NCBI RefSeq assembly: GCF_006345805.1 | Contig: NW_021825442.1 | Coordinates: 1-21,792 of the forward strand | From: Octopus sinensis | Taxonomy: Eukaryota | Direction: 5' to 3' | DNA length: 21,792 nucleotides | Shown: positions 14,653 through 20,600 of the stretch, piece after piece | Layout: each line of letters begins with the position of its first letter | Position numbering within the stretch: position 1 is the stretch's first letter | Made by a program: the position numbers

Positions 14653-17600
14653 ATATATTACACGAGGGCTTCTTCCAATTTCTCTCTACCAAATCCACCA
14701 GAGGGCCTTAGTCAGCCCGAATCTATAGTAGAAGACACTTGCCGAAGTTTCCAGGCAGTGGGAATGAACCCGCAACTATGTGGTTGTAAAGCAAGGTACT
14801 TACCACACAGCCACGTCTTGGACACGTTAATTTCTTGAGTAGAAAATTCACTTGTTTAGATACTCGTCGTCACTTCTGACGGAAGAGCCACGCAGTTGTT
14901 CGCAGTGAGTTTTATCACATCTATCGCTTACAAACCTGTAATATGGTGTTTGTTCGCTGTGATATTAATACCTAGCTCTCAAGTGAATGTCACGTGATAT
15001 AGCCCTCTGCTATGTATTTCATTTCCAAAATACAAGAATGAAATGTCATCATAACTATCGTAACATAATCTTAATTTTATTTTCATTTATTTTTATTGTT
15101 TAGTTTTACGTAAATGCCCGACCGCTTACAAATAATCAACCGACTGAGCCGAAATATTCGTAACTAAGCAAGTGATCTTGTGGACGCGTTCACTTCGGTT
15201 CTAGGTTCCGAAAGCAATGACTCCAGGATAGTTTAATATTCTTAATTATTGCGCGTGCGTGTGTTCTAATCTATATATATTTTTTTTATTGCCCACAAGG
15301 GGCTAAACACAAAGAGGACAAACAAGGACAGACAAATTGGTTAAGTCGATTACATCGACCCCAGTACGTAACTGGTACTTATTAAATCGACCCCGAAAGG
15401 ATGAAAGTCAAAGTCAACCTCGGCGGAATTTGAACTCAGAACATAATGGCAGACGAAATACCTATTTCTTTACTACCTACAAGGGGCTAAACACAGAGGG
15501 GACAAACAAGGACAGACAAACGGATTAAGTTGATTACATCGACCCCAGTGCGTAACTATTACTTACTTTATCGACCCCGAGAGGATGAAAGGCAAAGTCG
15601 ACCTCAGCTGAACGAAATACCGCTAGGCATTTCGCCCGGCGTGCTAACGATTCTGCCACCTCTATATTTTTATGTTCACTGAAATACATCGAATGGCTAT
15701 GGAGATCTAATAGAGTAAAAGAAGAATCGAAGGGGTCCGTAGGCAAAAATTGGTTGAGAACCACTGGTCTAGCTTATCCACGAGACCGTTTGCTGCCATT
15801 CAGTTCTGTTGAGTCATCTTCACTTTGAGTTTTGTATACATACATACATACATACATACATACATACATACATACATACATACATACATACATACATACA
15901 TACATACATACATACATGGTGGTCATCTCATCTACTCTTTATGCAGAGTCTGAGTACCTCTTGTACTTACACCTTAGATCCATCATGGCGTCTGATGTGG
16001 CTTTTTAAACTAGACAATGTTTTGAAAAGACACCCACATAGTTTGCATATCCGATTTGGGCCACCCAGAGCTGCAGTTAAGTTCTGATCTTTGTGAATCT
16101 TAAAATGTCTTTTGAGGCCTCCATTAGATTTGCAACCCGTATGGCATACACAGCATTGAAAGGTGTGCATAGACATATTAGCAGGATAGTTGATGGAGTT
16201 TCGTTTGTCATAGGTACGCAAATGGGATTTGAGCCCAGCAAAAAAGAAAGGCATGGTCTGTCACAAACAGTCCACACAAAAAGGTCATTGTGATTCATGT
16301 TCTTGATCGTAAATTCTTTTTTAAATCTCTTTTGAGTCTTGCATGTGTTATCCTAGCCTCTTCAAATGCTTCCACTCCACTCCTCACTTTTGTTCACCAT
16401 CCATCTCAATCTGAAGCAAGGGTTTCTATGTCCTCTGGATTCATTCCAAGTGACTTCATGGTAGTCCTTATGCCATCCTTAAACCTCTTTTTAGGTTTAC
16501 ACCGATTGCGTTTCTCCTCTGGAAGCTCGCCATAAAACAGCTGTTTCGGTGTTTCCCTCATTTTGTACAGCTGTTTCGGTGTTTCCCTCATTTTGTACAG
16601 CTGTTTCGGTGTTTCCCTCATTTTGTACAGCTGTTTCGGTGTTTCCCTCATTTTGTACAGCTGTTTCGGTGTTTCCCTCATTTTGTACAGCTGTTTCGGT
16701 GTTTCCCTCATTTTGTACAGCTGTTTCGGTGTTTCCCTCATTTTGTACAGCTGTTTCGGTGTTTCCCTCATTTTGTAGCTGTTTCGGTGTTTCATCATTT
16801 TGTACAGCTGTTTCGGTGTTTCCCTCAATTGTACAGCTGTTTCGGTGTTTCCCTCATTTGTACAGCTGTTTCGGTGTTCCCTCATTTGTACAGCTGTTTC
16901 GGTGTTTCCTCATTTGGTACAGCTGTTTCGGTGTTTCTCATTTTGTACAGCTGTTCGGTGTTTCCCTCAATTTGTACAGCTGTTTCGGTGTTTCCCTCAT
17001 TTTGTACAGCTGTTTCGGTGTTTCCCTCATTTGTACAGCTGTTTCGGTGTTTCCCTCATTTTGTACAGCTGTTTCGGGTTTCCCTCATTTGTACAGCTGT
17101 TTCGGTGTTTCCCTCATTTTGTACAGCTGTTTCGGTGTTTCCCTCATTTTGTACAGCTGTTTCGGTGTTTCCCTCATTTTGTACAGCTGTTTCGGTGGTT
17201 CCCTCATTTTGTACAGCTGTTTCGGTGTTTCCCTCATTTTGTACAGCTGTTTCGGTGTTTCCCTCATTTTGTACAGCTGTTTCGGTGTTTCCCTCATTTT
17301 GTACAGCTGTTTCGGTGGTTCCCTCATTTTTGTACAGCTGTTTCGGTGTTTCCCATTTTGTACAGCTGTTTTGGTGTTTCCCTCATTTTGTACAGCTGTT
17401 TCGGTGTTTCCCTCATTTTGTACAGCTGTTTCGGTGTTTCCCTCATTTTGTACAGCTGTTTCGGTTTTCCCTCATTTTGTACAGCTGGTTCGGTGTTTCC
17501 TCATTTTGTACAGCTGTTTCGGTGTTTCCCTCATTTTGTACAGCTGTTTCGGTGTTTCCCTCATTTTGTACAGCTGTTTCGGTGTTTCCCTCATTTTGTA

Positions 17601-20600
17601 CAGCTGTTTCGGTGTTTCCCTCATTTTGTACAGCTGTTTCGGTGTTTCCCTCATTTTGTACAGCTGTTTCGGTGTTTCCCTCATTTTGTACAGCTGTTTC
17701 GGTGTTTCCCTCATTTTGTACAGCTGTTTCGGTGTTTCCCTCATTTTGTACAGCTGTTTCGGTGTTTCCCTCATTTTGTACAGCTGTTTCGGTGTTTCCC
17801 TCATTTTGTACAGCTGTTTCGGTGTTTCCCTCATTTTGTACAGCTGTTTCGGTGTTTCCCTCATTTTGTACAGCTGTTTCGGTGTTTCCCTCATTTTGTA
17901 CAGCTGTTTCGGGTTTCCATCATTTTGTACAGCTGTTTCGGTGTGTGTTTCCTCTTTGTACAGCTGTTTCGGTGTTTCCCTCATTTTGTACAGCTGTTTC
18001 GGTGTTTCCCTCATTTTGTACAGCTGTTTCGGTGTTTCCTCATTTTGTACAGCTGTTTCGGTGTTCCCTCATTTTGGTACAGCTGTTTCGGTGTTTCCCT
18101 CATTTTGTACAGAGGTTCGGTGTTTCCCTCATTGTACAGCGGTTTCGGTGTTTCCCTCATTTTGTACAGTGTTTCGGTGTTTCCCTCATTTTGTACAGCT
18201 GTTTCGGTGTTTCCCTCATTTTGTACAGCTGTTTCGGTGTTTCCCTCATTTTGTACAGCTGTTTCGGTGTTTCCCTCATTTGTACAGCTGTTTCGGTGTT
18301 TCCCTCATTTTGTACAGCTGTTTCGGTGGTTCCCTCATTTTGTACAGCTGTTTCGGTGTTTCCCTCATTTTGTACAGCTGTTTCGGTGTTTCCCTCATTT
18401 TGTACAGCTGTTTCGGTGTGTTTCCTCATTTTGTACAGCTGTTTCGGTGTTTCCCTCATTTTGTACAGCTGTTTCGGTGTTTCCCTCATTTTGTACAGCT
18501 GTTTCGGTGTTTCCCTCATTTTGTACAGCTGTTTCGGTGTTTCCTCATTTTGTACAAGCTGTTTCGGTGTTTCCCTCATTTTGTACAGCTGTCGTGTTTC
18601 CCTCATTTTGTACAGCTGTTTCGGTGTTTCCCTCATTTTGTACAGCTGTTTCGGTGTTTCCCTCATTTTGTACAGCTGTTCGGTGTTTCCCTCATTTTGT
18701 ACAGCTGTTTCGGTGTTTCCCTCATTGTACAGCTGTTTCGGTGTTTCCCTCATTTTGTACAGCGTTTCGGTGTTTCCCTCATTTTGTACAGCTGTTTCGG
18801 TGTTTCCTCATTTTGTACAGCTGTTTCGGTGTTTCCCTCATTTTGTACAGCTGTTCGGTGTTTCCCTCATTTTGTACAGCTGTTTCGGTGTTCCCTCATT
18901 TTGTACAGCTGTTTCGGTGTTCCCTCATTTTGTACAGCTGTTCGGTGTTTCCTCATTTTGTACAGAGCTTCCAGGGTAGATGGAAGAATCAACAAACTTA
19001 ACAAAAATTTTAGCGGGGTTGCAAACAGCACCATGTGCAAGTTGAAACATTACGACTGTTTTTTTTTTTTTTTTTTCAATTTGATGTTCAAGCCATCATC
19101 AAAAGCTGAGTCAAATGCAGATACAAGAGATTTCAGGCTCGTTTCAGAGTGACTGACTAGATCACAATCGTTAGGGTATAAGAGTTCCCTAATTAGTGAA
19201 GTAAAAACCTTTGTTTTGAATTTCAGTCTGGTCAGATTAAAAACATTCCCTGTTGTTCGATATTTTATGTAAATACCCTCCTCGGAGTTTTGGAAAGTGT
19301 GTGACAGCACAACAGCAAAATATATTGCAAAGAGGATGGGTCTCCTTGCTTTAATCTATTTTCCACGGCAAAATATTCAGAGAGCCTACCACCAAAATTA
19401 ATTCTAGCTTTCATATGATGCAAAGCCCTGATCTAGTTTACAATTTTTTCTAGGCAACCTAGTTTCCTTAGAATTAGCCACAGAGCATTTCAATTAACAG
19501 TATTGAAAGCTTTGCTCAAATCAACAAAGTAATAGTATAGGGCAAGATGTGTTCAAATTCCGCCGAGGTCAACTTTGCCTTTCATCCTTTCGGGGTCGAT
19601 AAATTAAGCACCAGTTACGCACTGGGGTCGATGTAATCGACTTAATACCTATGTCTGTCCTTGTTTGTCCCCTCTATGTTTAGCTCCTTGTGGGTAATAA
19701 AGAAATAGGTATAGGGCAAGATTCTGTTCAATGCACTTTTCTTGTAATTGTCTGATAGTATAGATACAATCAACTGTAAAAACCACGTTGAAACTCAGAC
19801 ACCATATTTAGAACTATAAAGGTATTTAAACGTTTTAACAGAATGCGGGCAAGTACCTTTCCAACCACAGACAAAAGCAAAATTCCACGAAAATTGCCAC
19901 ACAGATCCTATGGCCCCGATTTATACAAGGAGACTAAAATGGCATCAATCCAGTCTTGAGGTACTTTCTCAGTTCTCCAGCAGTGACAAATTACTATATT
20001 TAAGAGTTCAAACATTTTGTCACTTTCATATTTCAAGTCCTCTGCACAGATTTCATCAGATCCTGGAGACTTATTGTTATTCAGCTTATTCACAGCTATA
20101 ATAAATGTCATTTAGAGTTGGTTCAAATGCTATCTCTTCTATAACTGGAAGATGTTCGATTTTTTCATGTCAGCGGATGATGGTCTATTAAAAAATGCAA
20201 AAAAAAAAATGATCTACCCAGCGCTTATGAATAGAAGCGATGTCAGTCAAAAGCAAATGTTCATCTGCTGTTCTCAGTGGAGCTATTGAAGAAGATTTGG
20301 GGCCATATACCTCCTTAACATAAGAGTACAAACCCTTGGCAACATTTCTATCAGCTGCTTCTTGTGCCCCTTTTGCTCTATCATTCCACTACTCCTGTTT
20401 AATCTTCCTGAGAGTAATCTGCACTTTCCTTTTCAGCTTTCTGTAAGCTTCATTTGAGTTGGGGTTCAAAGATTAAGAAAGAAGTGTATGGCCTAAGTTT
20501 TGTTTTTCTAAAAGTAGATCATGAATTTCTGCTGATTTGTCTGTGAACCAATCACTGGGCCTACGCGATTTAAAATTCATCGACGAGCTTGCAGCCTGAA

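What the first reader, a model, noticed from the sequence alone, without database searches (positions are those of the whole stretch)
16535..18975. A 2.4-kb minisatellite born at a deletion junction inside a LINE
In RTE sense the array is entered from ...IYPGSSVQNEG (the YLGS region after the RT core) and exited into ETPKQLFYGEL. In intact RTE ORF2 these motifs are roughly 120 codons apart (general knowledge, not measured here). The 30-mer CTGTACAAAATGAGGGAAACACCGAAACAG is chimeric: the first part comes from the upstream side and the second from the downstream side of the deletion. It is bounded by CTGT microhomologies (gctCTGTac and cagCTGTtt), and the downstream one lies in a perfect 12-bp palindrome, AAACAGCTGTTT (16535-16546). 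A junction-spanning unit was thus amplified about 81 times, by RT or repair-polymerase reiteration, a rolling circle, or later slippage. Five of six frames stay open, and each unit has an E-box (CAGCTG).
Basis: partly seen in the sequence, partly recalled or inferred. Interest (0 to 1): 0.7.

Follow-up and report, generated by a model that had tools for sequence, protein, structure and literature searches.

The report
Minisatellite inside a dead octopus LINE
A 30-base unit repeated about 82 times replaces roughly 120 codons of a decayed octopus retrotransposon copy, and it is an ordinary though neat case of a transposon-derived minisatellite.

Summary
The array is real: 82 head-to-tail units of 30 nt at 16541-18965 plus a 4-nt partial unit (TRF: 82.1 copies, 95% matches). 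It lies in a dead, 5'-truncated LINE on the minus strand. That LINE has the endonuclease + RT + C2H2 architecture reported for octopus RTE elements. Its closest matches are Octopus vulgaris proteins.

The array begins one base after the YPGS (YLGS) motif at the end of the RT domain and ends in TPKQLFYGEL. The closest intact relative (P0002) has 120 residues between these points.

The unit's last 12 nt are native downstream LINE sequence. Its first 16-18 nt do not resemble what four octopus copies carry upstream of TPKQ. Read in the upstream frame (SVQNEG), they fit the profile of 90 relatives after YLGS (72 of 20000 random peptides score as well).

The units are far more uniform than the decayed flanks, which points to later slippage or unequal exchange rather than RT reiteration. 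Most unit variants are homopolymer deletions, probably assembly noise.

This is a known kind of event, with no evidence of function. Interest is low.

The parts
16541..18965 (-). Minisatellite of 82 units of 30 nt. 46 units are identical to the consensus.
16537..16540 (-). CTGT: a partial 83rd unit and the downstream copy of the 4-nt direct repeat. It is already part of the native codons for (Q)LF.
18962..18965 (-). CTGT at the start of unit 1: the upstream copy of the 4-nt direct repeat. In the upstream frame it lies in codons S-V after YPGS.
16535..16546 (.). 12-bp palindrome AAACAGCTGTTT at the array/flank joint. Inner unit joints carry the 8-bp palindrome ACAGCTGT (75 copies).
18966..19095 (-). 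End of the LINE RT region, ...VMFQ...IFVKFVDSSIYPGS. This is the last sequence that is certainly upstream-native.
   Evidence: profile nodes 13-24. P0028 residues 543-587 align to 19065-18946.
19098..19549 (-). LINE RT core (P0002 residues 663-817), about 60% identical, in two frames with 2 in-frame stops.
19545..19712 (.). SINE-like insertion that splits the RT. It is 90-92% identical to other copies in the window.
   Evidence: D13, D18, I5, I6
19779..20096 (-). LINE RT N-terminal part (P0002 residues 534-639), 58% identical. Pfam RVT_1 matches only weakly (20 bits, below the cut-off).
20209..20892 (-). End of the endonuclease domain plus the linker (P0002 residues 266-494), with 4 in-frame stops. 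No LINE homology lies further upstream, so the copy is 5'-truncated.
16313..16552 (-). Conserved C-terminal segment, TPKQLFYGEL...ETLASD... (P0002 residues 990-1069). It is 75-83% identical to O. vulgaris proteins P0003-P0005 and 64% to P0006. The homology starts inside the last unit.
15991..16239 (-). C2H2 zinc-finger tail of the LINE ORF (P0002 residues 1094-1174). The stop codon lies near 15967.
   Evidence: zf-C2H2, 28.5 bits, above the cut-off
15836..15917 (-). (GTAT)20.5 in LINE sense, about 50 nt after the stop codon. Probably the microsatellite 3' tail of the LINE (inference).
20886..20981 (-). Second, small tandem array at the 5' edge of the same LINE: 14 nt x 6.9, 100% identical. Its last unit overlaps LINE codons (..SDTRYW..).

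Best explanation
An RTE-type LINE of the octopus endonuclease-RT-C2H2 kind inserted on the minus strand, was 5'-truncated, and decayed. It lost about 360 bp (120 codons), from six codons after YLGS (YPGS-SVQNEG) to just before TPKQLFYGEL. The junction sequence carried CTGT twice, 30 nt apart (start to start). Replication slippage or unequal sister-chromatid exchange between these short direct repeats (the Haber-Louis route) duplicated the 30 nt spanning the junction. Further slippage, unequal exchange or conversion then expanded and homogenised the array to about 82 units. The 8-bp palindromes at the unit joints may stabilise one-unit loop-outs.

Shown here: the array, the LINE context, the missing segment, the LINE origin of the unit's 3' half, and the contrast between uniform units and decayed flanks.

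Inferred: the upstream origin of the unit's 5' half, the order of events, and the slippage mechanism.

No function is indicated. It is most likely neutral DNA.
For: (1) The layout is GCT-(CTGT+26 nt)x82-CTGT-TTTATGG, the configuration expected from duplication between short direct repeats.

(2) The 3' half of the unit is LINE sequence. tblastn matches of P0002-P0006 begin at 16546-16552, inside the last unit, and P0005 reads ERTPKQLFYGEL. The profile alignment covers nodes 149-190 at 28.7 bits.

(3) The 5' half read in the upstream frame (SVQNEG) scores +4.41 bits on nodes 25-30 of a profile built from 90 relatives, whose consensus is YLGsilssdg. Only 72 of 20000 random window-derived hexapeptides score as well. 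In an hmmsearch extension test, 19 of 3000 random extensions score as well.

(4) The downstream-native alternative fails. All 4 of 4 O. vulgaris copies read (I/T)(V/L)R(M/L)..E(R/H)(M/T)(P/L/S)KQ, not LYKMRETPKQ. The unit's first 18 nt align to back-translations of those copies no better than random 18-mers (984 to 2932 of 3000 random as good). As a positive control, true flank pieces beat all 2000 random 18-mers in 7 of 12 comparisons.

(5) The missing segment is P0002 residues 870-989.

(6) 46 of 82 units are identical, with only 15 substitutions in 2425 nt. The flanks have 9 in-frame stops and 5 frame changes over 651 aligned residues, plus a SINE-like insertion.

(7) Neighbouring joint palindromes pair as 8-bp stems with 22-nt loops.

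(8) The mechanism is the published one for TE-derived minisatellites: PMC6947457 (passages) and PMC3389668 (abstract and section 3.4).
Against: - Read in the downstream frame, LYKM fits the 'vlRm' profile nodes with a 2-codon gap (+4.16 bits, 187 of 20000 random as good). Against the general profile the rival origin is therefore nearly as good.
- The closest intact relative, P0002, reads YLGSTVSQTA after YLGS, so only V is identical to SVQNEG.
- The search for a same-family protein covering the upstream junction found nothing.
- The direct repeat is only 4 nt. The literature read here speaks of 5-10 or 5-20 nt.
- If deletion and duplication were independent events, a unit spanning the junction would be a coincidence of roughly 30 nt in about 3 kb (my estimate).
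- The hairpin signal is weak: z = -1.69, with 12-15 of 200 shuffles folding as well.
- Unit variants are 42 deletions, 7 insertions and 15 substitutions, and 32 of the 42 deletions lie in homopolymer runs. This looks like long-read consensus noise, so copy number and variants are unverified.
Confidence: 0.6

Rival explanations
1. The 30-nt unit is a contiguous native piece of the LINE (..GH-LYKM-RETPKQ..) that expanded in place. A separate deletion then removed the roughly 120 codons between YLGS and the 5' edge of the array.
For: LYKM scores +4.16 bits on the 'vlRm' nodes, with 187 of 20000 random as good. Some relatives' tblastn alignments run one to two units into the array, for example P0010 to 16597 and P0139 to 16615. 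Deletions next to unstable arrays are plausible on general knowledge.
Against: - It needs a 2-codon gap. The ungapped reading LYKMRE scores -2.7 bits, and 5657 of 20000 random peptides do as well.
- In the hmmsearch extension test, 670 of 3000 random extensions are as good.
- None of the 4 octopus copies has this reading, although they are 75-83% identical (P0006: 64%) in the adjoining flank.
- The DNA test against their back-translations is at null level, while the positive control works.
- The 5' edge of the array falls exactly in the CTGT phase, which a random breakpoint would hit in about 1 of 30 cases (inference).
Confidence: 0.12
2. The first 16 nt of the unit come from neither side of the LINE. 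They are filler or captured DNA inserted at the deletion junction, and the filler-plus-flank piece was then amplified.
For: The support for an upstream origin rests on six residues against a profile of relatives that are 35-57% identical. No same-family sequence was found.
Against: The fit of SVQNEG in the correct frame and register directly after YPGS would then be chance (72 of 20000).
Confidence: 0.12
3. The array was made in one step when the copy was born, by RT reiteration or template jumping during target-primed reverse transcription, or by a rolling circle.
For: An internal deletion plus 5' truncation is typical of faulty reverse transcription (general knowledge). Microhomology is present at both edges.
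Against: The units are about 99.4% alike in substitutions (15 in 2425 nt), while the flanks carry 9 stops and 5 frame changes and a SINE-like insertion. An array as old as the insertion should have diverged too, unless it was continually homogenised. About 81 successive back-jumps in one event is unparsimonious.
Confidence: 0.05
4. The array exists, but its length and internal variants are largely an assembly product: collapse, expansion or unpolished long-read consensus.
For: Of 64 changes, 49 are indels and 42 are deletions, 32 of them in homopolymer runs. Noisy blocks alternate with runs of up to 13 perfect units. Other tandem arrays in the window are 100% perfect (15836-15917 and 20886-20981).
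Against: Nothing here tests it. No reads were available.
Confidence: 0.3
5. The array is a functional cluster of E-boxes (bHLH binding sites) or encodes a repeat peptide.
For: There are 76 CAGCTG in 2.4 kb against 4 in the other 19.4 kb. The three + frames are almost free of stops.
Against: The E-box is simply the unit joint. Open frames are expected for this composition (6849 of 20000 shuffles). There is no start context, no homologue and no conservation data. The array sits inside a dead transposon.
Confidence: 0.03

Closest known systems
TE-derived minisatellites (Ahmed & Liang 2012, PMC3389668; abstract and section 3.4 read)
   Same: A tandem repeat lying within, and sharing sequence with, a transposable element, expanded by local duplication of the unit. 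A subset is flanked by short direct repeats.
   Different: That survey is of the human genome, where most such repeats have only two units. Here there are 82 units in an octopus LINE, and the unit appears to span an internal deletion junction.
Haber-Louis model of minisatellite birth (known to me only through PMC6947457 and PMC3389668; the original paper was not read)
   Same: A motif flanked by a very short direct repeat is duplicated by slippage or unequal exchange and then expands. The array ends in a partial unit equal to the direct repeat.
   Different: The direct repeat here is 4 nt. The sources read speak of 5-10 or 5-20 nt, most often 7.
CRM1TR / CRM4TR tandem repeats of maize (Sharma et al. 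2013, PMC3648361; passages read)
   Same: Retrotransposon-derived tandem repeats whose founding structure is an internal deletion junction, made by illegitimate recombination and then amplified by recombination or conversion.
   Different: Those derive from an LTR retrotransposon, have monomers of hundreds of bases and lie in centromeres. Their deletion junction forms the monomer-monomer joint.
RTE-2_OV and other octopus RTE LINEs (Petrosino et al. 2022, PMC9115989, passages; PMC13282606, passages)
   Same: A single ORF with endonuclease, RT and a C2H2 zinc finger, an architecture said to be rare in RTE elements. The window copy and its relative P0002 show the same domain set.
   Different: The window copy is dead, 5'-truncated, internally deleted and split by a SINE-like insert. 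Its relation to RTE-2_OV itself could not be tested because no sequence was available.

Membership tests
Minisatellite | Head-to-tail copies of a unit of about 10-100 bp forming a local array | tested here: met
   Period 30, 82.1 copies, 95% matches; 82 parsed units
TE-derived tandem repeat | Lies within a TE and shares sequence with it | tested here: met
   LINE homology on both sides. The unit's last 12 nt continue the LINE ORF as TPKQ.
Haber-Louis type origin | Unit flanked by a short direct repeat, and array ending in a partial unit equal to that repeat | tested here: inconclusive
   CTGT is present at both edges, but it is only 4 nt against the 5-20 nt in the literature read. No single-unit precursor was available.
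Deletion-junction (chimeric) unit | The two halves of the unit map to non-adjacent places of the intact element | tested here: inconclusive
   The 3' half maps downstream. The 5' half fits the post-YLGS profile (72 of 20000) and not the octopus sequence before TPKQ. No same-family intact sequence was found, and a rival reading scores 187 of 20000.
RTE-clade LINE | Single ORF with an AP-type endonuclease followed by RT | tested here: met
   In the closest relative P0002: Exo_endo_phos at 58-221 and RVT_1 at 592-864. In the window, only the endonuclease end, the RT and the C-terminal tail remain.
RTE-clade LINE | RT groups with RTE reference elements in a phylogeny | not tested
   No named reference sequences were at hand. 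The label 'RTE-type' rests on the domain architecture described for octopus RTE and on my recollection of the PKQLLYGEL..GRP..R.KD tail.
RTE-clade LINE | Short 3' UTR ending in a simple-repeat tail (feature recalled from memory, not from a call) | tested here: met
   About 50 nt after the stop codon there is (GTAT)20.5.

The most novel reading that the evidence does not exclude
The internally deleted, array-bearing element is not a one-off. It could be the master or a member of a non-autonomous RTE derivative that carries the junction minisatellite around the octopus genome: a mobile VNTR-bearing retroelement, loosely like SVA (a comparison recalled from memory). Alternatively, deletion and seed duplication arose in a single template-switching event. 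Neither reading is excluded, because no octopus genome DNA could be searched. The 4 of 4 O. vulgaris copies without the array argue only against a family-wide feature.
Probability: 0.05. Interest if true: 0.55.

Novelty: new member of a known kind. Interest (0 to 1): 0.25.

Why it matters
If the chimeric unit holds, this locus is a clean snapshot of minisatellite birth. A deletion brings two 4-nt repeats within 30 nt of each other, and the new junction is then amplified about 80-fold. That makes it a useful teaching case and a possible VNTR marker in octopus. It does not bear on any open question, because TE-derived minisatellites, birth between short direct repeats, and tandem repeats founded on retrotransposon deletion junctions are all in print. 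The practical point for annotators is that the array's variant units look like consensus noise.

Tried and rejected
- Pfam on ten LINE pieces gave only a sub-threshold RVT_1 match and a zf-C2H2 match; the other eight pieces gave nothing meaningful.
- The word-index search with the upstream 56-residue piece found nothing: 4 candidates, none at E <= 1. No same-family sequence covers the YLGS side.
'Near' and 'shorter' length classes were never searched.
- The exhaustive HMMER search with P0002 gave 150 relatives, none closer to the window than P0002 itself.
- Rfam found no family in the window.
- Literature searches for octopus satellites or minisatellites found nothing specific to this repeat: terms 'octopus', 'satellite DNA', 'tandem repeat' gave 16 papers, of which 10 were listed. 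The RTE/LINE search is.
- The downstream-native origin of the unit was tested in three ways and not supported (with control 49).
- 'Open frames' was rejected as a signal.
- Hairpin formation is weak.
- I looked for higher-order structure in the array. No repeating variant pattern was seen, only recurrent homopolymer deletions and an A-to-C variant in units 22, 56 and 60.
- Endonuclease remnants upstream of 20892: none.
- Not checked: any eukaryotic genome DNA (none on offer), the closed collections metagenome contigs and viral contigs, raw reads, and paper supplements. The supplements are closed. The additional files of PMC9115989 and PMC13282606 may hold the octopus RTE consensus sequences that would settle the junction.

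
Full report
Tandem Repeats Finder reports one array at 16537-18965 with period 30, 82.1 copies, 95% matches and 3% indels. Parsing it on the minus strand gives 82 units from 18965 down to 16541, followed by the four bases CTGT. All matches lie in the array, and none appeared in 100 shuffles. 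The CTGT at both edges and the 12-bp palindrome at 16535-16546 can be read directly. The window has no N.

**Small corrections.**
- There are 82 units, not about 81.
- The first real unit has lost a G, so the entry reading SVQNEG is that of the consensus unit.
- CAGCTG is kept at 76 joints.
- 'Five of six frames open' applies to the consensus only. 6849 of 20000 shuffles of the unit do as well. The real array has 0, 0 and 1 stops in the + frames and 20, 38 and 23 in the - frames.

**Context.** The flanks are one LINE copy on the minus strand. A 101-residue piece of it found P0002, a 1179-residue protein at 57% identity. In P0002, Pfam places Exo_endo_phos at 58-221, RVT_1 at 592-864 and C2H2 fingers at 1081-1174. 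tblastn maps P0002 onto the window as follows:

| P0002 residues | Window coordinates |
|---|---|
| 266-494 | 20892-20209 |
| 534-639 | 20096-19779 |
| 663-733 | 19549-19340 |
| 737-817 | 19340-19098 |
| 990-1069 | 16552-16313 |
| 1094-1174 | 16239-15991 |

Over these 651 aligned residues the copy is 46.9% identical to P0002. It has 9 in-frame stops and 5 frame changes. A SINE-like element is inserted at 19545-19712. No endonuclease remnant lies upstream of 20892. The ORF ends near 15967, and about 50 nt later comes (GTAT)20.5.

The post-array piece is 72-87% identical to four 'hypothetical' Octopus vulgaris proteins, so the window is from an octopus or a close relative. The endonuclease-RT-C2H2 architecture is the one described for the octopus RTE element RTE-2_OV (PMC9115989, passages). 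I did not test clade membership by phylogeny.

**What is missing.** In P0002, YLGS is at 860-863 and IPKQLFFGEL at 990. An exhaustive HMMER search with P0002 gave 150 relatives, none closer to the window than P0002. Of the 156 stored proteins, 90 span P0002 840-1030 in one BLASTP match. I aligned these and made a 191-node profile. The profile aligns the upstream flank through YPGS (nodes 21-24). It aligns the downstream flank from node 149 at 28.7 bits. If the unit's first half is upstream sequence, the gap is nodes 31-150, that is P0002 870-989: 120 codons.

**Is the unit chimeric?** The 3' 12 nt (ACACCGAAACAG) are native downstream sequence. P0005 reads ERTPKQLFYGEL, and all tblastn matches start inside the last unit. 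There are two readings for the 5' 16-18 nt.

Reading 1: upstream frame, SVQNEG directly after YPGS.
- It scores +4.41 bits on nodes 25-30 (consensus 'ilssdg'). Only 72 of 20000 random hexapeptides translated from the rest of the window do as well.
- In a whole-model extension test, 19 of 3000 random extensions do as well.
- One stored protein, P0117, even reads YLGSTVQSNG.

Reading 2: downstream frame, LYKMRE before TPKQ.
- Ungapped it scores -2.7 bits (5657 of 20000 as good).
- With a 2-codon gap, LYKM on 'vlRm' scores +4.16 bits (187 of 20000). The extension test gives 670 of 3000.
- Family-specific data speak against it. All four octopus copies read IVRMVDERMLKQ, ILRLADEHMSKQ, TVRMVDERTPKQ or IVRMAVERMPKQ.
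- Even allowing frameshifts and the most favourable codons, the unit's first 18 nt align to back-translations of these no better than random 18-mers (984, 1743, 1891 and 2932 of 3000 as good).
- With the same method, true flank pieces beat all 2000 random pieces in 7 of 12 comparisons. The other five gave 22, 59, 195, 315 and 1031 of 2000.

The 5' edge of the array also falls exactly in the CTGT phase. Birth between direct repeats predicts this; a later random breakpoint would not. I put the junction-spanning unit at about 0.6. The weak point is that no same-family sequence covers the YLGS side (one search found none), and P0002 itself reads TVSQTA there.

**How it grew.** 46 of 82 units are identical to the consensus. 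The rest differ by 15 substitutions, 42 deletions and 7 insertions over 2425 nt. In substitutions the array is about 0.6% diverged, while the LINE around it is riddled with stops and frameshifts. Amplification or homogenisation is therefore much younger than the insertion. This argues against RT reiteration at birth and for replication slippage or unequal exchange. That is the published route for minisatellites flanked by short direct repeats (PMC6947457, passages; PMC3389668, section 3.4).

The joint palindromes ACAGCTGT of neighbouring units can pair as 8-bp stems with 22-nt loops, which might favour one-unit loop-outs. The signal is weak: z = -1.69, with 12-15 of 200 shuffles folding as well.

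32 of the 42 deletions are in homopolymer runs, and indels outnumber substitutions 49 to 15. This is unlike ordinary mutation and like unpolished long-read consensus (inference). The true array may be even more uniform, and its length is unverified.

**Comparison with the known.**
- TE-derived minisatellites are common: 23% of human mini/satellites (PMC3389668, abstract).
- Retrotransposon tandem repeats founded on an internal deletion junction are described for maize CRM elements (PMC3648361, passages).
- This locus is a new example of that kind in a cephalopod. It is small in scale, and the deletion junction lies inside the unit.
- I found no paper on this repeat or on octopus minisatellites. 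The O. vulgaris repeat annotation mentions tandem repeats only as a method step (PMC13282606, passages).

**Function.** Nothing indicates a function. The E-boxes and open frames follow from the unit's sequence.

**Left open.**
- Whether the 30-mer is unique in the genome.
- Whether sibling LINE copies share the junction.
- Whether reads support the length.
- RT phylogeny.

Noticed in passing
window 20886-20981: A second tandem array in the same LINE: 14 nt x 6.9, 100% identical. It sits exactly at the 5' truncation edge, and its last unit overlaps LINE codons (..SDTRYW..). With the (GTAT)n tail and the A17 run, this one dead LINE carries four simple or tandem repeats.
   Followed up: partly
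window 19061-19077: A run of 17 A (LINE sense) inside the RT coding region reads KKKKKK where P0002 has PKTK. It looks like a homopolymer expansion within former coding sequence.
   Followed up: no
window 1808-1906, 4622-4711, 10247-10336, 11328-11810, 15281-15628, 19545-19712: Copies of a SINE-like element of about 185 bp. Two places hold tandem copies at 184-185 bp spacing (2.6 copies at 11328-11810 and two at 15281-15628). One copy is inserted into the LINE RT. No Rfam family matched anywhere in the window.
   Followed up: partly
window 13342-13621 and 14275-14554: Inverted repeat with 280-nt arms, 98% complementary, 653 nt apart: a candidate foldback or TIR element.
   Followed up: no
window 3438-3684 and 6490-6736: Inverted repeat with 247-nt arms, 90% complementary, 2.8 kb apart: a possible TIR transposon.
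   Followed up: no
window 11863-13036: A tandem duplication of about 647 bp at 95-100% identity, seen as repeat families D14, D16 and D20.
   Followed up: no
proteins P0005 and P0006 (O. vulgaris gene models): LINE C-terminal fragments are annotated as parts of 'hypothetical proteins'. P0006 joins about 80 LINE-derived residues to a protein of 503 residues with F5/8-type-C (fucolectin-like) domains. P0005 starts with a piece that matches the LINE's zinc-finger region in another frame. These are either annotation artefacts or exonised TE pieces.
   Followed up: no
window as a whole: The window is very rich in micro- and minisatellites: 54 TRF rows in 21.8 kb, including long (TA)n, (TTA)n and (TATG)n tracts. 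Tandem expansion seems common in this region.
   Followed up: no
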